From a virus (taxonomy: Duplodnaviria > Heunggongvirae > Uroviricota > Caudoviricetes): a stretch of DNA of 22,048 bases. The notes under the pieces are model-generated. The model was not told the DNA's origin. It saw nothing but the letters and a program-made list of their open reading frames with translations, and did no database searches. The stretch is taken from positions 1-22,048 of IMG/VR virus record IMGVR_UViG_3300030444_000103, one strand, 5' to 3'. The translations under genes were made by a program, and so were the position numbers. Of this stretch, positions 3,273 to 15,200 are shown piece after piece (position 1 is the first letter of the stretch; every line of letters starts with the position of its first letter).

Positions 3273-3695
3273 GTGGCAAAAGTTTTTACACAAGAAGAGC
3301 GGGAAAAAATTAAATGGCAGGTGGTGGAACTCGTGCGCCAGAGCGGCCGTGAGACGTTACGGCAACTGGAAGCTAAAACAGGTGCGACTAGATATCTGAT
3401 GAGCGTTCTTGCCAGAGAGCTGGTAGCCAGTGGCGATGTATACAACTCCGGCTACGGGTTATTCCCCTCTGAACAGGCGCGTAAGGACTGGCAAAACGCC
3501 CGCAAAAAACTCTCGAGGGCAAAGGTGAAGAAACCTGCTGTGGTTGATCCGGACCTTATCTGGTCATCACCTGACGGAGAAATACGTCGCTACGACAGTC
3601 GCCTAAACATAATCTGTCGCGAGTGCCGGAAGAGCGAAGTTATGCAGCGCATACTGGCTTTCTATCAGGGTAATTTTCAGGACGTGGCGCAGTGA
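3273..3695 (+). CDS. Hypothetical prophage protein (140 aa), GTG start
   Basis: ORF with AAGGGGGA upstream of a GTG start; its stop overlaps the start of the next gene; no family recognised. Confidence 0.5.
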   Translation: MAKVFTQEEREKIKWQVVELVRQSGRETLRQLEAKTGATRYLMSVLARELVASGDVYNSGYGLFPSEQARKDWQNARKKLSRAKVKKPAVVDPDLIWSSPDGEIRRYDSRLNIICRECRKSEVMQRILAFYQGNFQDVAQ

Positions 3696-4137
3696 GTGCA
3701 CCGGCAACCATTCTTGATATGTGCTGTGGCAGCCGCATGTTCTGGTTCGATAAGTCTGACGAACGGGCGATATTTAGCGATATCAGAAAAGAAGGATACA
3801 CATTACGCAATGGGAGACGCTTGATTATCAGCCCTGACATTATCGCAGATTTTCGTGCATTATCATTTGCAGACGCATCTTTTTCGATGGTTGTATTAGA
3901 CCCTCCGCATCTTGAGCGTGTTGGTGATAACGCCTGGATGGGAAAGAAATATGGACGGCTGAATAAAGATGCCTGGCGTGATGATTTGCGACAGAGATTT
4001 AAAGAAGCTTTTCGGGTGTTGAGGCCGCACGGCGTTCTGATTTTTTAATGGAATGAAACGCAAATACCGGTAAGCCAGATTCTGGCACTGACAGATAGAA
4101 AGCCTGTTATCTGTCAACGAACAGGGAAAAAACGATA
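3692..4137 (+). pseudogene. DNA methyltransferase (DPPY/DPPH-motif type), frameshifted at a T6 run
   Basis: 118-aa ORF containing VVLDPPH ends at TAA within TTTTTT (4041-4046); the next frame continues open (WNETQIPVSQILALTDRKPVICQRTGKKR) to about 4137; no SAM-binding motif follows, so the gene is truncated. Confidence 0.5.
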
Positions 4138-4310
4138 AAACCCACTGGATTATTTTTATGAAAGAGGCATCCAGTGAGTAGATTCGTAAGGTTACAGATA
4201 CGTATATCTGAATAATTAAATTCAGTTCTGTAAATAAAACTTAATCCTTAACCGGATGGATTTCTGCACCCTCAGAACATCAGGAGGCCGCCCGAAAGGG
4301 CGGTAGTGAA

Positions 4311-4493
4311 ATGCGAAAGTTCAAAATTATTATTGAAACGGGAATAGCTGGTGGAGATTTTGAGGATGTATTCGAAGTGGACGATGACGCAACACCTGAT
4401 GAAATTCATGACGGAGCATAAGAAATTTTCTTTAACTACTGCAATTACTCATACCACGAAATAAAAGACGATGAGGAAGAACAAAGTGGCTGA
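4311..4493 (+). pseudogene. Short ORF with an in-frame TAA at 4419-4421
   Basis: Hand translation: MRKFKIIIETGIAGGDFEDVFEVDDDATPDEIHDGA, stop, then EIFFNYCNYSYHEIKDDEEEQSG. Confidence 0.3.
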
Positions 4494-4662
4494 TTTTTGT
4501 TCAGCTAAATATAACATCAGTTTTGAAGAGCGGGATGAACTATTAATGGACTATGGTGAGTTACGCGGTGGAAGTGCTGCTGATGTCGAATCCTAGCGTG
4601 ATGACTATGAAGCGGGAAAAACTCCGGTCGAAGCATATTGTGATGAGTGGGGCGATGAATGA
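4471..4662 (+). pseudogene. Short ORF with an in-frame TAG at 4594-4596
   Basis: Hand translation: MRKNKVADFCSAKYNISFEERDELLMDYGELRGGSAADVES, stop, then RDDYEAGKTPVEAYCDEWGDE; its TGA overlaps the next ATG (ATGA). Confidence 0.3.
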
Positions 4663-4946
4663 GCGAGATTAATTATCAGGAAGGGCATGAAACGGCGGGG
4701 CAAGCAAAACCAGTGACATGGCGATATCGCTACGTGAAAAAAGGCGTTACGGACTTTCAGGGGAAGTAGTGGTCTGGTGACTGGAAATATGTACCGAAAA
4801 AAGAGGATTGTAACGACAGGCCGAACTATCAAATTCAGGCCTTATTCACTGCCTCACCAGTCCCGGTTACATCAGAAGAATTGGTTAAAGCTGTGCACTT
4901 TTATGAACAACTAAAACGCGAAAATCCACCAACATCCGGCAACTAG
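4659..4946 (+). pseudogene. Short ORF with an in-frame TAG at 4767-4769
   Basis: Hand translation: MSEINYQEGHETAGQAKPVTWRYRYVKKGVTDFQGK, stop, then a 58-codon open stretch WSGDWKYVPKKEDCNDRPNYQIQALFTASPVPVTSEELVKAVHFYEQLKRENPPTSGN. Confidence 0.3.
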
Positions 4947-5200
4947 ATTAATGGGTTAACTATGTCGGTTAAACGACCAGCCAACTGAAAAAGCGGAAAC
5001 CTGATTACAGGTTGCCAGATAAGGCAATGAGCTACCTGGCGCGGAACGGACTGATAAGTATGGGGAATGTTTTACGATGAACCTTTAGACTAAAGAGTTT
5101 GTAACGCTATGTAAGTGATTTTTTCTGGTTTAGATATTTATATGTCCGGCCAAATTGAGGTGTGTTTAAATGTAATTGCACATTGATTGTAGGAGGAATA

Positions 5201-5380
5201 ATGAAAAACGCATTGCAGTTTTTGTTTGTTGCGTTCTGGTTGTTCGCATCATGTATGCCCATCATCTTCACAGCAAGGTATATGGAAAAAGTTGATGTTT
5301 TGATATTAATATTTGGATATATAAATGCCCTTTTTTTAGGGGTGTTCATGGCGGTCATGTGCATTGAATACTGGCGGTAA
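5201..5380 (+). CDS. Small hydrophobic (two-helix) membrane protein, 59 aa
   Basis: Strong SD AGGAGG 5 nt before ATG 5201 (inside track ORF 5162..5380); MKNALQFLFVAFWLFASCMPIIFTARYMEKVDVLILIFGYINALFLGVFMAVMCIEYWR; sits in an AT-rich island. Confidence 0.45.
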   Translation: MKNALQFLFVAFWLFASCMPIIFTARYMEKVDVLILIFGYINALFLGVFMAVMCIEYWR

Positions 5381-5559
5381 ATACAGCGAATTCCATTGGT
5401 TTAGTTGGATATTTACTGTGCTGGACAAAAACGGTTTGCGGGGAAATCTTAGTTAAGTAGAATGACTGCGGGTGCTTGAGGCTATCTGCCTCGGGCACGA
5501 ACACCAACGGCAGGTAGAGAAAAGCCCCAGTTAACATTACGCGTCCTGCAAGACGCTTA

Positions 5560-5640
5560 ACATTAATCTGAGGCCAATTTCATGCCAGACACATGTAGGT
5601 TAGCCTCTTACGTGCCGAAAGGCAAGGAGAAGCAGGCTAT
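5560..5640 (+). pseudogene. hok/gef-family 5' region remnant, cut at the start codon
   Basis: GCCTCTTACGTGCCGAAAGGCAAGGAGAAGCAGGCTAT matches the recalled hokC-type leader and SD and resembles the intact hokD start at 8941-8958; the coding sequence is absent after the start-codon position. Confidence 0.4.
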
Positions 5641-7127
5641 TGTTAACACCAAGCTGTAATGTCCCCTTTGAACCATTCTAAAATGTCCCCAGACAATTCT
5701 CTGGGGGATTTTTCATGACCAAAGAAACTGTTACGATGAGTCATAAGGAACTCCACCGACTTCAGATTATTCAGGAGTCAATTAATCGACATATTACTCA
5801 GGAACAAGCTGCGGCACGCATTGGCATTTCTATTCGGCAGGTTAAACGTCTGGTGCAACGGTATAGAAATGAAGGGCCTTCTGGTCTGGTTTCCCACCGA
5901 CGTGGAAAGCGTCCTAATAATTCCTTTTCTACTGAATTCAGAGCAACAGTAATTTTACTCCTCAAAGGCCGTTACGCTGATTTTGGACCTACGTTTGCGT
6001 GCGAAAAATTGCGCGAGATACACGGTTTATCTTTATCCGTTGAAACTCTCAGAAAGTGGATGATAGAAGAGGGGGGTATGGCGTGAACGCCGTCGTAAAA
6101 TTGCCCGTATATATCAACGCCGCATGCGACGACCATCTTACGGTGAACTGATCCAGATTGATGGCTCACCTCATGACTGGTTTGAAAATCGAGGCCCCAG
6201 ATGTACACTGATCGTTTTCATTGATGATGCCACCAGTGCGTTGATGGCGTTGCGTTTTGTGCCTGCTGAAACAACCCGGGCTTACATGGAAACCCTCCGG
6301 GGTTACCTTAATGATCATGGCGTACCGCTCGCTCTCTACTCTGATAGACACAGTATATTCAGGGTAAATAACCCAGAGCGGGAAGGTGAGCTGACCCAGT
6401 TCACTCGTGCGATAAAGACACTGGGCATCGAGCCAATCCATGCCAACAGCCCGCAGGCAAAAGGGCGGGTAGAGCGCGCCAATCAGACACTACAGGACAG
6501 GCTGGTCAAAGAAATGCGGCTTCAGAATATCAGTGATATTGAAACAGCAAATGCATGGTTGCCGACCTTTATTGAAGCCTATAACAACCGGTTCGCTACG
6601 TCGCCTCGTACTACTGATAATGCTCATCTTGATGTGCACCATTCTGAAGAGGAACTGGGTTATATCTTCAGCCTACAGGCGAAGCGCGTTCTGTCTAAAA
6701 ATCTCACTTTCCAGTACAAAAGCAGTGCGTTTCAGGTACGCAGTGAGGGCCGGGGATATCGACTTAGGCATTCGGTTGTTACTGTATGCGAGAACTTTGA
6801 CGGTGAAATTAACGTTCTGTATGACGGGAAAGCGCTGGGCTGGGAAAAGTATGTTGATGGCCCGGAGCCTATACCACTGGATGATGAAAAGAGTGTCCAT
6901 GAACGAGTGGATAATGCCCGTATTGATTTACGCTCAAAATACTATGTTAAACCTAAAGCTGACCATCCCTGGCTTACGCGCCGAACGCAAAGTCATCAGC
7001 AAGTTAAGCCCCCGAAGTTACCTAAAAAGAAGCCTGATCCCGATAAAAAAGATTGAAACCAAGATCGATTCGGTTGAGTGCATATCCATTCATAGGGTAG
7101 ATTCTTAAGTCGCGTTTCTGGTGTTCA
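5641..7127 (+). mobile_element. Insertion sequence with a DDE (rve) transposase, IS481/ISNCY-like; boundaries approximate
   Basis: Begins where hok homology ends; candidate imperfect terminal inverted repeats TGTTAACACCA (left) and TGAACACCA (right, reverse complement); no clear target-site duplication. Confidence 0.4.
5715..7056 (+). pseudogene. DDE transposase split into two ORFs by a frameshift in a G6 run (6071-6076)
   Basis: ORF 5715..6086 carries the N-terminal HTH; ORF 6124..7056 carries the integrase core; the alternative frame across the G run reads ...EEGVWRERRRKIARIYQRRMRRPSYGELIQ..., joining them. Confidence 0.7.
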
Positions 7128-7492
7128 TTTTCGGGTGGTTTGTTACTTGTTTTACCGGGGATATGCCAGAAACGCGCTGAGTCAGTCTGGGCGGTGCGCG
7201 TAATGAGGCGTTATGGTAAATAGCCTATGCTAATGTCCGCTAAGAGCAAGAAGCGGAAGTTGGCAGTTTTGTGGACTGTCCCCACAAAAGTGACTACAGA
7301 AATAGTTGCAATTCATAATTGATCATGGGTTGTCAGTTAAACTCGTGGCGATTTAAATAGACTAATTGGGAGTGCGTCCATTACTTATATCTTGTAATGT
7401 TAACTATCAGAAATGATACAAAGATAATATGTCTTTAAAGAAAAGGCTGATGGCGAAAAGTGGCCCGATGAGGGCCACAATACGGCTGTCAC

Positions 7493-7825
7493 TTAGACGT
7501 AAATATCAATGGTGCCAGCGGTATTTGTATCGTCTTTTTTCTCTTCTTTTTTATCAGGCTGAACTGTCGCGTCTTTATTCTTTTTCTCTGCCTGCTGCCT
7601 TAACAACTGCTCCAGTTGAGCCCTGAGGCTTTCAATTTGCTTCTGTACCAATGCAGCCATTTCTTTTTTCTGCTGTGTCGTCATCCCCTCTTCCGATGAG
7701 ATTTTCCCAAGCTTTTCAGTCAGCACCTGAATTTGTCTTGTGATTTTGGCTATTTCTGATGTTCCTTCCGGGGCGGAGTTGTTTGAAATAACGGTTGAGG
7801 TATTTCCCTGAATTGTGACAGACAT
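7493..7825 (-). CDS. flxA: FlxA-like protein (110 aa)
   Basis: 110-aa coiled-coil-like ORF matching the recalled size and context of Qin flxA; preceded by a sigma-28 promoter match. Confidence 0.65.
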   Translation of the reverse strand: MSVTIQGNTSTVISNNSAPEGTSEIAKITRQIQVLTEKLGKISSEEGMTTQQKKEMAALVQKQIESLRAQLEQLLRQQAEKKNKDATVQPDKKEEKKDDTNTAGTIDIYV

Positions 7826-7848
7826 AGATTTCTCCTTTTAAAAAAGCA

Positions 7849-7875
7849 CTATCGGCATGCACAAAAAAATCTTTA
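7849..7875 (-). promoter_or_regulatory. Sigma-28 (FliA) promoter for flxA
   Basis: Minus strand reads TAAAGATT-N11-GCCGATAG against consensus TAAAGTTT-N11-GCCGATAA, about 25 nt upstream of the start codon. Confidence 0.6.
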
Positions 7876-8320
7876 ATCGTATTTCTTGTGTCATTAATTG
7901 TTTGATGTTCAGATTGTTTTCCTCGCGGGCTGGCGCGCCTCAGAAAGTAAAGCTTGTTGACAGGGGTAAACGTTCGGCAATAATTTTCTGCCGCATGCGG
8001 GTGTTGCATAAAACGTGCTACGTTCCTTTATCGACAGGTCAGGTCACCGCTCACCCGCCGACGAGAAAGCAACACTGACATGCTAAAGCAAAAAATAGAT
8101 GAATAAGTTGAGTTGTGCATATGTAGCCTGACCGTCACAAAGTATATGGTGTCTGTACCAGTAAGATGATGGCCGGACTCTTTAAAAACGAGCTGACCTG
8201 CACAATACAGGATGGACTTAGCAATGGCTGCTCCTGGCACAAAGCGGACAGTGATCACCGTTCTTACGACTACTTTCTGACTTCCTTCGTGACTTGCCCT
8301 AAGCATGTTGTAGTGCGATA

Positions 8321-8346
8321 CTTGTAATGACATTTGTAATTACAAG
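8321..8346 (+). promoter_or_regulatory. relBE operator-like palindrome (relO)
   Basis: CTTGTAATGACATTTGTAATTACAAG just upstream of relB; matches the known pattern of TTGTAAT/ATTACAA repeats. Confidence 0.5.
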
Positions 8347-8357
8347 AGGTGTAAGAC

Positions 8358-8597
8358 ATGGGTAGCATTAACCTGCGTATTGACGATGAACTTAAAGCGC
8401 GTTCTTACGCCGCGCTTGAAAAAATGGGTGTAACTCCTTCTGAAGCGCTTCGTCTCATGCTCGAGTATATCGCTGACAATGAACGCTTGCCGTTCAAACA
8501 GACACTCCTGAGTGATGAAGATGCTGAACTTGTGGAGATAGTGAAAGAACGGCTTCGTAATCCTAAGCCAGTACGTGTGACGCTGGATGAACTCTGA
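8358..8597 (+). CDS. relB: RelB antitoxin
   Basis: 79 aa, MGSINLRIDDELKARSYAALEKMGVTPSEALRLMLEYIADNERLPF...; stop overlaps the relE ATG (TGATG). Confidence 0.85.
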   Translation: MGSINLRIDDELKARSYAALEKMGVTPSEALRLMLEYIADNERLPFKQTLLSDEDAELVEIVKERLRNPKPVRVTLDEL

Positions 8598-8884
8598 TGG
8601 CGTATTTTCTGGATTTTGACGAGCGGGCACTAAAGGAATGGCGAAAGCTGGGCTCGACGGTACGTGAACAGTTGAAAAAGAAGCTGGTTGAAGTACTTGA
8701 GTCACCCCGGATTGAAGCAAACAAGCTCCGTGGTATGCCTGATTGTTACAAGATTAAGCTCCGGTCTTCAGGCTATCGCCTTGTATACCAGGTTATAGAC
8801 GAGAAAGTTGTCGTTTTCGTGATTTCTGTTGGGAAAAGAGAACGCTCGGAAGTATATAGCGAGGCGGTCAAACGCATTCTCTGA
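8597..8884 (+). CDS. relE: RelE mRNA-interferase toxin
   Basis: 95 aa, MAYFLDFDERALKEWRKLGSTVREQLKKKLVEVLESPRIEANKLRGMPDCYKIKLRSSGYRLVYQVIDEKVVVFVISVGKRERSEVY... Confidence 0.85.
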   Translation: MAYFLDFDERALKEWRKLGSTVREQLKKKLVEVLESPRIEANKLRGMPDCYKIKLRSSGYRLVYQVIDEKVVVFVISVGKRERSEVYSEAVKRIL

Positions 8885-8955
8885 ACCAAAGCATGACATC
8901 TCTGTTTCGCACCGAAGGTGACACTTCTGCTTTGCGTTGACAGGAGAAGCAGGCT

Positions 8956-9111
8956 ATGAAGCAGCAAAAGGCGATGTTAATCGCCCTGATCGTCATCTGT
9001 TTAACCGTCATAGTGACGGCACTGGTAACGAGGAAAGACCTCTGCGAGGTACGAATCCGAACCGGCCAGACGGAGGTCGCTGTCTTCACAGCTTACGAAC
9101 CTGAGGAGTAA
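8956..9111 (+). CDS. hokD: HokD (RelF) type I toxin, 51 aa
   Basis: Hand translation: MKQQKAMLIALIVICLTVIVTALVTRKDLCEVRIRTGQTEVAVFTAYEPEE; below the ORF-track cutoff. Confidence 0.85.
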   Translation: MKQQKAMLIALIVICLTVIVTALVTRKDLCEVRIRTGQTEVAVFTAYEPEE

Positions 9112-9178
9112 GAGACCCGGCGGGGGAGAAATCCCTCGCCACCTCTGATGTGGCAGGCATCCTCAACGCACCCGCACT

Positions 9179-9207
9179 TAACCCGCTTCGGCGGGTTTTT
9201 GTTTTTA
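9179..9207 (+). terminator. Rho-independent terminator after hokD
   Basis: ACCCGCTTCGGCGGGT hairpin followed by a T-run. Confidence 0.6.
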
Positions 9208-9327
9208 TTTTCAACGCGTTTGAAGTTCTGGACGGTGCCGGAATAGAATCAAAAATACTTAAGTAGCGCGCAGGGATAAGAGGGATGGTCCCTTAAAGGG
9301 GAGAGCTAATTATCCGGAAGGATTCTG

Positions 9328-9925: not shown

Positions 9926-10975
9926 GTGCGGGTATTACTTAGACCTGTTCTGGTGCCTGAGCTTGGGCTGGTGGTCCTTAAGCCGGGCCGTGAATCCATA
10001 CAGATATTTCATAATCCTCGAGTGCTGGTGGAACCGGAACCAAAAAGCATGCGTAATCTGCCATCCGGAGTCGTTCCTGCCGTTCGCCAGCCGCTGGCGG
10101 AAGACAAAACATTGCTGCCGTTTTTTAGTAACGAACGGGTGATTCGTGCTGCTGGCGGCGTTGGCGCATTGTCCGACTGGCTATTACGTCATGTTACATC
10201 CTGCCAGTGGCCTAATGGCGATTACCATCACACTGAAACAGTCATTCACCGTTATGGTACCGGCGCAATGGTGTTGTGCTGGCACTGCGACAACCAACTG
10301 CGTGACCAGACATCGGAATCACTGGAGCTGCTTGCTCAACAAAATCTGACAGCATGGGTGATTGACGTCATCCGTCACGCAATAAGCGGTACGCAGGAGC
10401 GGGAATTATCTTTGGCTGAATTATCCTGGTGGGCGGTCTGCAATCAGGTGGTGGATGCACTACCTGAGGCTGTATCGCGTCGTTCGCTGGGATTACCAGC
10501 GGAAAAAATCTGCTCGGTGTACCGCGAAAGCGACATCGTACCGGGAGAGCAGACCGCCACCAGCATATTGAAACAACGCACAAAAAATCTTGCACCGTTG
10601 CCTTACGCCCACCAGCAACAAAAATCACCACAGGAAAAGACGGTGGTAAGCATCACCGTTGATCCAGAGTCTCCGGAATCTTTCATGAAGCTGCCTAAAC
10701 GTCGCCGCTGGGTTAAGGAGAAATACACACGTTGGGTTAAGACACAGCCGTGTGCTTGCTGCGGTATGCCAGCCGACGATCCGCATCATCTGATTGGTCA
10801 CGGGCAGGGCGGAATGGGAACAAAAGCACATGATCTCTTTGTGTTGCCTTTGTGCAGAAAGCATCACAACGAGCTGCATACGGATACAGTGGCATTTGAA
10901 GATAAGTATGGCTCCCAACTGGAGCTGATATTTCGTTTTATCGATCGCGCGCTGGCAATTGGCGTACTGGCGTAA
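9926..10975 (+). CDS. YdfU-like DUF968 protein with a C-terminal Cys/His (HNH-like) motif, 349 aa
   Basis: Track ORF 9887..10975; GTG at 9926 after GGAGGT; C-terminus ...QPCACCGMPADDPHHLIGHGQGGMGTKAHDLFVLPLCRKHHNELH... Confidence 0.6.
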   Translation: MRVLLRPVLVPELGLVVLKPGRESIQIFHNPRVLVEPEPKSMRNLPSGVVPAVRQPLAEDKTLLPFFSNERVIRAAGGVGALSDWLLRHVTSCQWPNGDYHHTETVIHRYGTGAMVLCWHCDNQLRDQTSESLELLAQQNLTAWVIDVIRHAISGTQERELSLAELSWWAVCNQVVDALPEAVSRRSLGLPAEKICSVYRESDIVPGEQTATSILKQRTKNLAPLPYAHQQQKSPQEKTVVSITVDPESPESFMKLPKRRRWVKEKYTRWVKTQPCACCGMPADDPHHLIGHGQGGMGTKAHDLFVLPLCRKHHNELHTDTVAFEDKYGSQLELIFRFIDRALAIGVLA

Positions 10976-10988
10976 GTGGAGAACGAGC

Positions 10989-11741
10989 ATGAACCTTGAA
11001 GCCTTACCAAAATATTACTCCCCAAAATCTCCAAAATTGAGCGATGACGCTCCAGCGACAGGCACCGGTTGTTTAACAATTACGGATGTAATGGCAGCGC
11101 AGGGGATGGTGCAGTCGAAAGCACCACTTGGGTTGGCCTTATTTCTGGCAAAAGTTGGTGTTCAGGACCCTCAGTTTGCGATTGAAGGCCTGCTAAATTA
11201 CGCGATGGCACTGGATAACCCGACATTGAACAAATTGAGTGAAGAAATCCGGTTACAGATTATTCCTTACCTCGTGAGTTTTGCCTTTGCTGATTACTCC
11301 AGGTCTGCGGCAAGTAAGGCTCGCTGTGAGCATTGTTCAGGTACGGGATTTTATAATGTATTGCGCGAAGTGGTGAAACACTACAGACGCGGGGAATCTG
11401 TAATCAAGGAAGAATGGGTGAAGGAACTATGTCAGCATTGCCATGGTAAGGGCGAAGCCAGCACAGCGTGCAGAGGGTGTAAGGGTAAAGGGATTGTTCT
11501 GGATGAAAAAAGAACCCGGTTTCATGGCGTACCGGTATATAAGATTTGTGGGCGTTGTAATGGAAACCGGTTTAGTCGTTTACCGACCACGCTGGCACGA
11601 CGTCATGTCCAGAAGCTGGTACCAGACCTGACCGATTATCAGTGGTATAAGGGGTATGCGGACGTCATTGGTAAACTGGTAACAAAGTGCTGGCAGGAAG
11701 AAGCATACGCGGAAGCGCAATTGAGGAAGGTGACGAGATAA
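10989..11741 (+). CDS. Late-gene antiterminator Q (phage 82 / QuuQ-like), 250 aa
   Basis: Track ORF 10959..11741 with ATG 10989 after GGAG; several CxxC pairs; size and sequence match the recalled Qin QuuQ. Confidence 0.8.
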   Translation: MNLEALPKYYSPKSPKLSDDAPATGTGCLTITDVMAAQGMVQSKAPLGLALFLAKVGVQDPQFAIEGLLNYAMALDNPTLNKLSEEIRLQIIPYLVSFAFADYSRSAASKARCEHCSGTGFYNVLREVVKHYRRGESVIKEEWVKELCQHCHGKGEASTACRGCKGKGIVLDEKRTRFHGVPVYKICGRCNGNRFSRLPTTLARRHVQKLVPDLTDYQWYKGYADVIGKLVTKCWQEEAYAEAQLRKVTR

Positions 11742-13864: not shown

Positions 13865-14172
13865 ATGACTCAAGACTATGAACTGGTTGTGAAAGGAGTC
13901 CGTAATTTTGAGAATAAAGTTACGGTAACTGTAGCCTTACAGGACAAAGAACGCTTTGACGGTGAAATTTTTGACCTGGATGTCGCCATGGACCGTGTTG
14001 AAGGAGCTGCGCTGGAGTTTTATGAGGCAGCAGCCAGAAGGAGCGTCCGGCAAGTCTTCCTGGAAGTAGCAGAAAAATTGTCAGAAAAAGTTGAGTCTTA
14101 TCTGCAGCATCAGTACTCCTTTAAGATTGAAAATCCTGCCAATAAGCACGAGCGTCCTCATCATAAATATAT

Positions 14173-14176
<4 letters not shown>
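13865..14176 (+). CDS. YdfR-like hypothetical protein (103 aa) between holin and endolysin
   Basis: 103-aa ORF; its stop overlaps the endolysin ATG (ATGA); same size and position as ydfR in Qin. Confidence 0.55.

Positions 14177-15200
<1,024 letters not shown>

What the first reader, a model, noticed from the sequence alone, without database searches (positions are those of the whole stretch)
5107..5400. AT-rich island with a strongly ribosome-bound small two-helix membrane protein next to a hok remnant
A 59-aa very hydrophobic ORF (5201-5380) has a near-consensus AGGAGG at ideal spacing and sits in a locally AT-rich stretch, typical of a horizontally acquired moron. Small membrane proteins of this type in prophages are often toxins or membrane modulators, and it lies directly upstream of a decapitated hok locus. 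I do not recognise the family.
Basis: partly seen in the sequence, partly recalled or inferred. Interest (0 to 1): 0.45.

Follow-up and report, generated by a model that had tools for sequence, protein, structure and literature searches.

The report
Unannotated small prophage membrane protein gene
The 59-codon reading frame is very probably a real but uncharacterised gene for a tiny two-helix membrane protein that travels with a hok toxin cassette in E. coli prophages; it is a modest find whose function is unknown.

Summary
The ORF is there: + strand 5201-5380, 59 aa, GRAVY 1.27, two predicted helices, AGGAGG 4 nt before the ATG. ORF length, AT-richness and hydrophobicity are all within chance. 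An ORF this long turns up in 17% of random segments of the same composition. What makes it a gene is a second branch of the family, found by exhaustive phmmer. That paralog is also 59 aa, aligns without gaps with the same start and stop, and is 41% identical in protein and 59% in DNA. Identity by codon position is 58/72/48% and dN/dS is about 0.19. The antisense ORF that phage records annotate is closed in the paralog. The family occurs only in Escherichia/Shigella. Branch 1 is in 1569 and branch 2 in 1045 of 5426 complete genomes. It was unannotated in every RefSeq genome sampled, is absent from K-12 MG1655, and matches no Pfam, PHROG, NCBIfam, PADLOC or PDB family. No promoter, terminator or antisense RNA was found, so the 'moron' reading is unsupported. 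Both branches sit directly upstream of a hok cassette. The neighbouring hok remnant is not decapitated. It is the intact head (promoter, leader, sok, mok start), cut at the hok ATG by a 3.3-kb IS-bounded unit carrying relBE; the body is hokD at 8956. Function remains unknown.

The parts
5191..5196 (+). Shine-Dalgarno core AGGAGG, 4-nt spacer (AATA) to the ATG
   Evidence: Sequence. It is one of 2 AGGAGG+start sites in the window. Two haplotypes carry A5194G. The paralog has only AGGGA 7 nt upstream of its ATG.
5201..5380 (+). ORF59 coding sequence (59 codons plus TAA): MKNALQFLFVAFWLFASCMPIIFTARYMEKVDVLILIFGYINALFLGVFMAVMCIEYWR
   Evidence: Paralog P0044 is 59 aa and aligns without gaps at 41% identity. 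Codon-position identity is 58/72/48% and pN 0.34 against pS 0.72. Random-placement test. tblastn of the paralog against this ORF in phage genomes gives E 3e-11. The ATG at 5201, not the GTG at 5162, is the shared start, because the paralog has an in-frame TAA 6 codons upstream of its ATG.
5204..5272 (+). Helix 1 / transmembrane segment 1 (aa 2-24), with invariant W13, S17, C18, P20, I21, I22, T24
   Evidence: Hydropathy, AF2 model, alignment A1
5288..5374 (+). Helix 2 / transmembrane segment 2 (aa 30-58), with F38, G39, N42, A43, L44, V48 and F49 invariant, G47 nearly so (V in one branch-2 variant), and the C-terminal E56-x-W58-R59
5331..5337 (+). T7 homopolymer inside codons 44-46; site of the frameshifted 55-aa variants
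   Evidence: Sequence. Variants P0019, P0022, P0024 and P0025 end ...FFRGVHGGHVH.
5107..5364 (-). Antisense 85-aa ORF, annotated in phage GenBank records as 'hornerin' or hypothetical protein; rejected as a gene
   Evidence: This frame has stop codons in the paralog. No family hit.
5436..5463 (+). Inferred hok promoter (TTGCGG, 16 nt, TAGAAT), 56 nt after the ORF59 stop
   Evidence: Read from the sequence. It is placed just 5' of the Rfam leader match that starts at 5470. Inference only; the consensus scan did not flag it.
5470..5641 (+). hok mRNA leader (the 'head' of the hok/sok locus), including the mok start at 5582; ends at the hok start codon, here ATT
   Evidence: Rfam RF01794, 99.8 bits, model positions 1-157 of 157. 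It is colinear with the intact locus of phage vB_EcoS-640R1 and with mokW/hokW of 933W.
5520..5590 (-). sok antisense RNA homologue (orphan, because its hok target body is displaced)
   Evidence: Position transferred from the sokW annotation of phage 933W, L178 2094-2164, where L178 2001 corresponds to window 5427. Approximate.
5625..5640 (.). Left copy of a perfect 16-nt direct repeat, AGGAGAAGCAGGCTAT
   Evidence: family D10; the second copy is at 8942-8957
5642..8941 (+). 3.3-kb unit bounded by imperfect inverted ends (5642-5667 against 8916-8941, 19 of 26). It holds a frameshifted ISNCY/IS1202-type (ISEsa1-family) transposase (5715-6086 and 6124-7056), flxA, ydfV, relB and relE
8942..8957 (.). 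Right copy of the 16-nt direct repeat, overlapping the hokD start codon
8956..9111 (+). hokD (relF) coding sequence: the displaced 'body' of the same ancestral hok locus
   Evidence: Pfam HOK_GEF, E 1.2e-23. Intact-phage L002 4627-4890 matches window 8942-9206 at 98%, and L002 3995-4642 matches window 4994-5640.

Best explanation
ORF59 (5201-5380, + strand) is a genuine protein-coding gene for a 59-residue inner-membrane protein. The protein forms a helical hairpin, probably with both termini in the cytoplasm. It belongs to an unnamed two-branch family confined to Escherichia/Shigella prophage DNA, where it always sits directly upstream of a hok/sok cassette. Shown: both branches keep the same start, stop and length without indels at 59% DNA identity, and the substitution pattern is that of a coding sequence. 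Inferred: the gene has no promoter of its own. It lies in the rightward early operon, in the order dicC/cro, replication genes, nin-like genes, ORF59, hok, rem, ydfU, Q. It would therefore be made when that operon is derepressed, not as a lysogen-expressed moron. Also inferred, and weakly: the protein acts inside the membrane through helix-helix packing, using the conserved small/polar face of helix 2 (G39-x3-A43-x3-G47 with N42) and the S17-C18-x-P20 kink of helix 1. It could self-associate and perturb the membrane, or bind a host or phage membrane partner. In the window's defective Qin-type prophage the gene is intact but probably under relaxed constraint. I put about 0.85 on it being a real membrane-protein gene and about 0.25 on the mechanistic part.
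For: Exhaustive phmmer over 1.84 billion representatives found a second branch: 59 aa, 41% identity over residues 1-59, E 1.2e-8. That branch sits on more than 3700 collection blocks. The codon alignment has no gaps, and identity by codon position is 58/72/48%. pN is 0.34 against pS 0.72, giving dN/dS of about 0.19, and the antisense frame is closed in the paralog. When the 73 differences are placed at random, ATG, stop and open frame all survive in 0.135% of trials, and amino-acid identity reaches 24/59 in 0.5%. Both happened together in 0 of 20,000 trials. Twenty-one columns are invariant, including polar and small residues inside the helices. tblastn of the paralog against 2.3 Gb of phage DNA hits ORF59 at E 3e-11. 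Hydropathy and AF2 give two helices, 2-24 and 30-58, at mean pLDDT 71. The N-terminus carries K2 (branch 1) or R2-K3 (branch 2), and the loop is neutral or acidic, which favours an N-in topology (inference). The perfect SD is described. The ORF is present in inducible or complete phage records. Of 142 branch-1 loci with enough sequence, 141 have the hok leader immediately downstream, 75 of them with an intact hok. The paralog is followed 55 nt later by a fragment 80% identical to the interior of hok. No promoter or terminator flanks the ORF.
Against: RefSeq/PGAP annotates nothing here in 40 of 40 sampled genomes for branch 1 and 30 of 30 for branch 2. Within-branch polymorphism is 7 nonsynonymous to 1 synonymous in branch 1 and 3 to 0 in branch 2, which fits neutrality better than omega 0.2. 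Frameshifted alleles at the T7 run and junction-truncated alleles exist. Only two branches are known, so the evolutionary test rests on one pairwise comparison with saturated dS. The paralog was also found through predicted proteins, which is an ascertainment bias. ORF length and hydrophobicity alone are within chance. There are no expression data. The fold is a generic hairpin with no informative structural neighbour.
Confidence: 0.6

Rival explanations
1. Chance ORF: a non-functional open frame in a T-rich, AT-rich spacer between a decayed early gene and the hok promoter. It is not translated to any purpose, and its hydrophobicity is a by-product of T at codon position 2.
For: An ATG ORF of at least 59 aa arises in 17% of random segments of this composition, and about 36 are expected per 22 kb of random sequence. 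T is 52% at codon position 2. PGAP never calls it. Polymorphism is 10 nonsynonymous to 1 synonymous. Frameshift alleles exist. There is no promoter and no family hit.
Against: The only diverged homologue keeps the same ATG, stop and length with no indel at 59% DNA identity, while the flanks need gaps. Position 3 is the least conserved and position 2 the most. Random placement of the differences keeps the frame in 0.135% of trials. A perfect SD sits at the shared start. GC3 is 50% against GC1 34% and GC2 28%.
Confidence: 0.12
2. Accessory component of the hok module: ORF59 is functionally coupled to Hok. It might be a membrane partner that tempers or potentiates Hok when the phage early operon is on. 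Alternatively, its transcription into the hok promoter might alter hok mRNA processing.
For: Linkage is near-invariant: 141 of 142 branch-1 loci have the hok leader 90 nt downstream. The 41%-identical paralog is also followed by a hok fragment. There is no terminator between ORF59 and the hok promoter. Both products are small inner-membrane proteins.
Against: The same hok cassette occurs without ORF59 in 76 of 79 phage records, with homology starting at window position 5417-5428, and in 933W an unrelated 156-aa ORF lies upstream. Linkage in two branches can be plain inherited synteny. ORF59 stays intact where hok is split (56 loci) or decapitated (branch 2). No protein partner of Hok is known (own knowledge).
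Confidence: 0.1
3. Autonomous toxin or moron: a self-contained, horizontally acquired cassette with its own promoter, expressed in the lysogen. It could be a type I-like toxin kept in check by an antisense RNA.
For: The product is small, hydrophobic and under 60 aa, with a strong SD and locally low GC. Many cryptic-prophage small proteins are toxic when overproduced (own knowledge).
Against: No sigma-70-like promoter on either strand and no terminator around the ORF, in the window, the intact phage or the paralog, above shuffle expectation. No Rfam hit apart from the hok leader. No unusual RNA structure on either strand, z -0.83 and -0.35. It has two transmembrane helices rather than the single helix typical of type I toxins. 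It is co-oriented with the early operon.
Confidence: 0.08
4. The real gene is the antisense 85-aa ORF (5364 to 5107, minus strand), as annotated in three phage GenBank records.
For: Gene callers chose it in ON470612, ON470619 and PV340562. It is longer than ORF59.
Against: The corresponding frame carries stop codons in the paralog. No SD-like sequence precedes its ATG. It is on the strand opposite to all neighbouring early genes. No family hit. Four of five polymorphisms are nonsynonymous in that frame as well.
Confidence: 0.02

Closest known systems
Hok/Gef family type I toxins (PF01848), the neighbouring gene family
   Same: A small (50-60 aa) hydrophobic inner-membrane protein encoded in prophage or plasmid DNA, physically adjacent to a hok cassette.
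   Different: No sequence similarity to HokD (BLASTP finds no alignment at E <= 100) and no PF01848 match. It has two helices rather than one transmembrane helix plus a periplasmic tail. The mok/sok/fbi regulatory architecture does not cover it, since the Rfam hit starts at 5470.
Class II holins / pinholins (for example phage 21 S68; two transmembrane domains, N-in and C-in; own knowledge)
   Same: Phage-encoded, about 60-70 aa, a two-helix hairpin with a small-residue (glycine-zipper-like) face on helix 2.
   Different: It is not in the lysis cassette, which lies at 13865-15200 downstream of Q. There is no charged C-terminal tail (it ends in EYWR) and no dual-start motif. Helix 1 is Phe-rich rather than Gly/Ala-rich. 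No holin PHROG or Pfam hit.
Small toxic or regulatory proteins of E. coli cryptic prophages (YdfD and DicB of Qin, KilR of Rac; own knowledge)
   Same: Short ORFs of defective lambdoid prophages, expressed only when the prophage repressor is relieved; some act on the membrane or on division.
   Different: No homology to any of them. ORF59 is absent from K-12 MG1655, where those proteins were defined. No phenotype is known.
Small two-transmembrane superinfection-exclusion or immunity proteins of phages (for example T4 Imm, HK97 gp15; own knowledge)
   Same: Small helical-hairpin inner-membrane proteins carried by phages as accessory genes.
   Different: No sequence or profile similarity. Those are lysogen- or early-expressed from defined promoters, and none is seen here. 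Function was not tested.

Membership tests
Hok/Gef type I toxin | Match to the Pfam HOK_GEF profile or similarity to Hok proteins | tested here: not met
   No Pfam hit at E <= 10. BLASTP against HokD finds no alignment. The control, hokD at 8956-9111, matches at E 1.2e-23.
Hok/Gef type I toxin | A single N-terminal transmembrane helix with a periplasmic C-terminal domain | tested here: not met
   Two hydrophobic helices span nearly the whole protein.
Hok/Gef type I toxin | An overlapping mok frame, sok antisense RNA and a folded leader controlling translation | tested here: not met
   The Rfam sok/hok-leader match covers 5470-5641 only, downstream of ORF59.
Type I toxin-antitoxin toxin (generic) | A hydrophobic peptide under about 60 aa | tested here: met
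   59 aa, GRAVY 1.27
Type I toxin-antitoxin toxin (generic) | A cognate antisense or divergent small RNA with its own promoter | tested here: inconclusive
   No promoter-like site on either strand, no Rfam family and no stable structure. A consensus scan cannot exclude weak promoters.
Type I toxin-antitoxin toxin (generic) | Growth arrest or membrane damage on expression | not testable with these tools
   Needs inducible expression.
Phage moron | An own promoter upstream and a terminator downstream, making an autonomous transcription unit | tested here: not met
   0 promoter-like sites in 4800-5800 against 2.6 expected. The only terminator-like sites are a minus-strand one at 5013-4998 and one at 5686-5707 inside the IS. 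The intact phage has none either.
Phage moron | Composition distinct from neighbouring phage genes | tested here: inconclusive
   GC is 35.7% against a mean of 45.5%, but 7.8% of windows are as low. Neighbouring windows starting between 4100 and 4400 are 38-41%.
Phage moron | Expression from the repressed prophage | not testable with these tools
   Needs a transcriptome or Ribo-seq of a lysogen.
Class II holin / pinholin | Two transmembrane domains, N-in and C-in | tested here: met
   Two helices. Orientation is inferred from the charge distribution.
Class II holin / pinholin | Position in the lysis cassette next to the endolysin, under late (Q-dependent) control | tested here: not met
   Q is at 10959-11741, the lysozyme at 14173-14706 and DUF1327 at 13865-14176. 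ORF59 lies 5.6 kb upstream of Q.
Class II holin / pinholin | A charged cytoplasmic C-terminal tail, and a profile match to holin families | tested here: not met
   The C-terminus is IEYWR. No PHROG or Pfam holin hit.
ORF59 family (defined here: branch 1 is the window type, branch 2 is P0044) | 59 aa with the pattern M1..L5..L8....W13...S17-C18-x-P20-I-I-x-T24 ... F38-G39-x-x-N42-A-L44-x-x-G47-V-F49 ... E56-x-W58-R59 | tested here: met
   Alignment A1 has 21 invariant columns and no gaps. G47 is V in one branch-2 variant (P0046), so that position is near-invariant.
ORF59 family (defined here: branch 1 is the window type, branch 2 is P0044) | Location immediately upstream of a hok cassette in lambdoid-prophage-derived DNA of Escherichia/Shigella | tested here: met

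The most novel reading that the evidence does not exclude
ORF59 is a protein component of an extended hok module. In this reading it is a two-helix membrane protein, co-inherited with hok over a long divergence, that binds Hok in the inner membrane (or shares its target) and gates Hok killing when the phage early operon is switched on. That would add a protein partner to what is considered a purely RNA-controlled type I toxin-antitoxin system.
Probability: 0.08. Interest if true: 0.7.

Novelty: new member of a known kind. Interest (0 to 1): 0.35.

Why it matters
If correct, up to half of the sequenced complete E. coli genomes carry an unannotated gene for a small membrane protein. Branch 1 is in 1569 and branch 2 in 1045 of 5426 genomes; overlap between the two sets was not determined. 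The gene has been overlooked for three reasons. It is missing from K-12 MG1655. RefSeq did not call it in any genome sampled. Phage annotators call the wrong strand. It adds one more case to the under-counted small membrane proteome of prophages. Its constant position in front of hok gives a concrete, cheap hypothesis to test, namely membrane toxicity or modulation of Hok. The surrounding anatomy also clarifies a textbook locus. The relBE-hokD 'operon' of Qin appears to have arisen when an IS-bounded unit carrying relBE landed on the hok start codon. That left an orphan hok promoter, leader and sok next to ORF59.

Tried and rejected
- Family searches with ORF59 and with the two-branch alignment gave nothing significant. 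Pfam, PHROGs, NCBIfam and PADLOC were tried. The only hits were DUF4212 at E 0.03 and phrog_6298 at E 0.02, for branch 2 alone and below any cut-off. The PDB sequence profile gave 0 hits at E <= 10.
- Foldseek of the AF2 model against BFVD and PDB returned only generic helical hairpins, with no hit at E <= 1e-3.
- I looked for a third, more distant branch in four ways: a profile search of 5.8 billion proteins, a degenerate-pattern scan of metagenome contigs, tblastn of both branches against 50,697 phage genomes and a scan of GTDB species genomes. None turned up.
- L006, a 90%-identical copy with a broken frame and a disrupted SD, was set aside. Its differences are mostly 1-nt indels, several of them in base runs, which suggests assembly error.
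- SNP density is lower inside the ORF than in the flanks. I did not use this as evidence, because the loci were selected by protein identity.
- Within-branch dN/dS was uninformative or contrary, at 10 nonsynonymous to 1 synonymous.
- A structured-RNA reading was rejected, with z-scores of -0.83 and -0.35.
- Hok duplication was rejected as an origin.
- A literature search for the peptide strings found no papers.

Full report
**Where the window comes from**

The window is a Qin-type defective lambdoid prophage of E. coli. Positions 5000-5700 are 99.9% identical to E. coli IAI1 and many other strains. In IAI1 the annotated order is dicA, dicC, ydaT-like gene, replication gene, DUF977 gene, a frameshifted methyltransferase and two further pseudogenes. 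After these comes an unannotated stretch, then an ISEsa1-family transposase, ydfW, flxA, ydfV, relB, relE, hokD, rem and ydfU. Further right in the window lie Q (10959-11741) and the lysis genes (13865-15200).

**The observation**

The ORF is real: ATG 5201 to TAA 5380 on the + strand, 59 aa. AGGAGG sits at 5191-5196 with a 4-nt spacer, a perfect core at a slightly short distance. Only two AGGAGG sites in the window precede a start codon. The product has GRAVY 1.27 and two hydrophobic stretches. AF2 models it as a hairpin, with helices 2-24 and 30-58 at pLDDT 71.

None of this is beyond chance.
- An ATG ORF of at least 59 aa appears in 17% of random 390-nt segments of the same composition.
- T makes up 52% of codon position 2, which by itself yields a hydrophobic peptide.
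- The GC of 35.7% is matched or undercut by 7.8% of equal-sized windows.
- RefSeq annotates nothing here in 40 of 40 sampled genomes.
- Three phage GenBank records annotate the antisense 85-aa ORF instead, as 'hornerin' or hypothetical protein.

**Close copies do not settle it**

The DNA is present in 1569 of 5426 complete E. coli genomes, always at 95% identity or more. The word-indexed protein search found only E. coli/Shigella sequences. Full-length copies were at least 92% identical. It also found frameshifted alleles at the T7 run (5331-5337) and alleles truncated at rearrangement junctions. Across 151 loci there are 9 ORF haplotypes, with 7 nonsynonymous changes and 1 synonymous. That gives no sign of recent purifying selection, although the changes are conservative (A16V, V31I, I37M, Y40H and others). 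One 90%-identical copy with a broken frame (L006) has many 1-nt indels, several in base runs, and I treat it as assembly error.

**A diverged paralog does settle it**

Exhaustive phmmer against 1.84 billion representatives found a second branch, P0039/P0044. It is 59 aa and 41% identical over residues 1-59, at E 1.2e-8. The alignment has no gaps, and start and stop coincide.

At the DNA level the two ORFs are 59% identical. Identity by codon position is 58/72/48%, pN is 0.34 against pS 0.72, and dN/dS is about 0.19 with dS saturated. The antisense 85-aa frame carries stops in the paralog.

I placed the 73 differences at random and asked how often the coding features survive.
- ATG, stop and open frame all survive in 0.135% of trials.
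- Amino-acid identity reaches 24/59 in 0.5% of trials.
- Both happened together in 0 of 20,000 trials.

An independent tblastn of the paralog against 2.3 Gb of phage DNA hits ORF59 at E 3e-11. The paralog has an in-frame TAA six codons before its ATG. The shared start is therefore the ATG at 5201, not the GTG at 5162 used in older 72-aa annotations.

Twenty-one columns are invariant: M1, L5, L8, W13, S17, C18, P20, I21, I22, T24, L36, F38, G39, N42, A43, L44, V48, F49, E56, W58 and R59. G47 is near-invariant, being V in one branch-2 variant. Several branch-1 polymorphisms (I37M, Y40H, Y57C) are the residues found in the paralog. I conclude the + strand ORF is a real gene, at about 0.85, and the antisense annotation is wrong.

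The caveats are these. There is only one pairwise comparison. The paralog was ascertained through predicted proteins. No third branch was found despite four searches.

**Distribution and context of the family**

Branch 2 lies in the E. coli chromosome between ttcA (plus an integrase fragment) and uspF/ompN. This is the Rac attachment site. It is present in 1045 of 5426 complete genomes, including Nissle 1917, LF82 and the type strain, and is again unannotated in RefSeq.

K-12 MG1655 lacks both branches. In its Qin prophage ydfX abuts ydfW. That is consistent with a deletion running from the gene after dicC into the transposase, which removes ORF59 and the hok leader. Its ttcA site holds Rac. 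This explains why the family has never been studied. Sources that name the protein call it 'hypothetical' or 'uncharacterized membrane protein'.

No Pfam, PHROG, NCBIfam, PADLOC or PDB relationship exists. Fold searches return only generic hairpins.

**Linkage to hok**

In 141 of 142 branch-1 loci with enough sequence, the hok leader follows 90 nt after the ORF59 stop. Of these, 75 carry an intact hok and 56 the IS-split form seen in the window. The paralog is followed 55 nt later by a fragment 80% identical to the interior of the hok coding sequence, a truly decapitated hok.

The same hok cassette occurs without ORF59 in 76 of 79 phage records, with homology starting at window position 5417-5428. 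In 933W an unrelated ORF lies upstream of it. The linkage is therefore old, but it may be simple synteny. ORF59 is not related to Hok.

**Expression signals**

There is no sigma-70-like promoter on either strand and no terminator flanking the ORF. This holds in the window, in the intact phage and at the paralog, none exceeding shuffle expectation. Neither strand folds unusually well. Rfam finds only the hok leader. The ORF is co-oriented with the early rightward genes.

The best reading is a delayed-early gene expressed by read-through, not a moron and not a type I pair. The charge distribution favours an N-in/C-in hairpin: K2 or R2-K3 at the N-terminus and a neutral or acidic loop. The conserved G39-x3-A43-x3-G47 face with N42, and the S17-C18-x-P20 motif, suggest helix packing or oligomerisation in the membrane. 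This mechanistic part is inference, at about 0.25.

**The hok remnant**

Rfam RF01794 matches 5470-5641 over its full length at 99.8 bits and ends at the hok start codon, which here reads ATT. Mapping from 933W places sok at about 5520-5590 on the minus strand and the mok start at 5582. A plausible hok promoter, TTGCGG-16-TAGAAT, lies at 5436-5463 (read). So the regulatory head is intact and the toxin body is missing, the reverse of 'decapitated'.

The intact phage vB_EcoS-640R1 shows the uninterrupted locus. Its positions 3995-4642 match window 4994-5640, and its positions 4627-4890 match window 8942-9206, which is hokD. A perfect 16-nt direct repeat, AGGAGAAGCAGGCTAT, flanks the intervening 3.3 kb at 5625-5640 and 8942-8957. 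The best inverted match to the left end anywhere in 5700-9300 is 8916-8941 (19 of 26), abutting the right repeat. The probability of 18 or more matches at a random position is 2.8e-4.

The unit holds a frameshifted ISNCY/IS1202-type transposase, flxA, ydfV, relB and relE. It looks like one transposition event of an IS-bounded unit carrying relBE into the hok start codon, which created the relBE-hokD arrangement. That relBE integrated into the hok locus has been noted before (PMC6379469). ISEsa1 itself is listed with no detectable target duplication (PMC10132070), so the 16-nt repeat may be informative for that subgroup.

**Verdict**

This is a probably genuine, previously uncharacterised small membrane-protein gene of narrow distribution and unknown function. 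It is of moderate interest. The 'moron' and 'decapitated hok' interpretations do not hold.

Noticed in passing
window 5625-5640, 5642-8941, 8942-8957, 8956-9111: A perfect 16-nt direct repeat flanks a 3.3-kb unit with imperfect inverted ends (19 of 26). The unit carries an ISEsa1-family (ISNCY/IS1202) transposase, flxA, ydfV and relBE, and is inserted exactly at the hok start codon. hokD is the displaced body of the hok locus whose head lies at 5470-5641. This suggests relBE arrived as cargo of an IS-bounded unit and so created the relBE-hokD operon. ISEsa1 is listed in the literature as having no detectable target duplication.
   Followed up: partly
window 5436-5641 (both strands): An orphan hok promoter, hok leader, mok start and sok antisense gene survive without the toxin coding sequence. 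The sok promoter, read by eye on the minus strand at about 5593-5621, lies left of the IS junction, so Sok RNA could still be made.
   Followed up: partly
window 6907-7056 (within ORF 6124-7056): The K-12 'protein YdfW' (49 aa) shares its stop and frame with the 310-aa ISNCY transposase ORF, so it is the C-terminal remnant of that transposase. K-12 ydfX abuts it, consistent with a deletion that removed the segment between them (including ORF59 and the hok leader).
   Followed up: partly
L002 4108-4359 (-), L003 4108-4359 (-); window 5107-5364 (-): Three phage GenBank records (ON470612, ON470619, PV340562) annotate the antisense 85-aa ORF, two of them as 'hornerin'. That frame is closed in the paralog, so these look like wrong-strand calls.
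   Followed up: yes
L088 6001-6310 (E. coli chromosome between ttcA and uspF): Branch 2 of the family sits in a decayed island at the Rac attachment site. The island holds an integrase fragment, the 59-aa ORF, a truly decapitated hok fragment (80% identical to the hok interior) and fragments of ABC-3 permease genes. It is present in 1045 of 5426 complete genomes (Nissle 1917, LF82, ATCC 11775) and is unannotated in RefSeq.
   Followed up: partly
window 3692-5080: The genes just upstream of ORF59 are decayed: a frameshifted SAM-dependent methyltransferase, a DUF7167 gene with an internal stop, and a frameshifted hypothetical gene ending at 5080 (PGAP annotation of IAI1). The window also has a 57-nt insertion at about 4937-4993 relative to phage vB_EcoS-640R1.
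   Followed up: no
L006 2371-2790 (E. coli ECMA0423, CP178302): A 90%-identical copy with a disrupted SD and several 1-nt indels in the ORF. The pattern suggests long-read assembly error rather than real divergence, and the genome serves as a GTDB species representative.
   Followed up: partly
window 5648-5713: The left end of the IS carries a 19-nt subterminal direct repeat (5648-5666 and 5672-5690) and a terminator-like hairpin (5686-5707) just before the transposase start. These may be transposase-binding or read-through-blocking elements.
   Followed up: no
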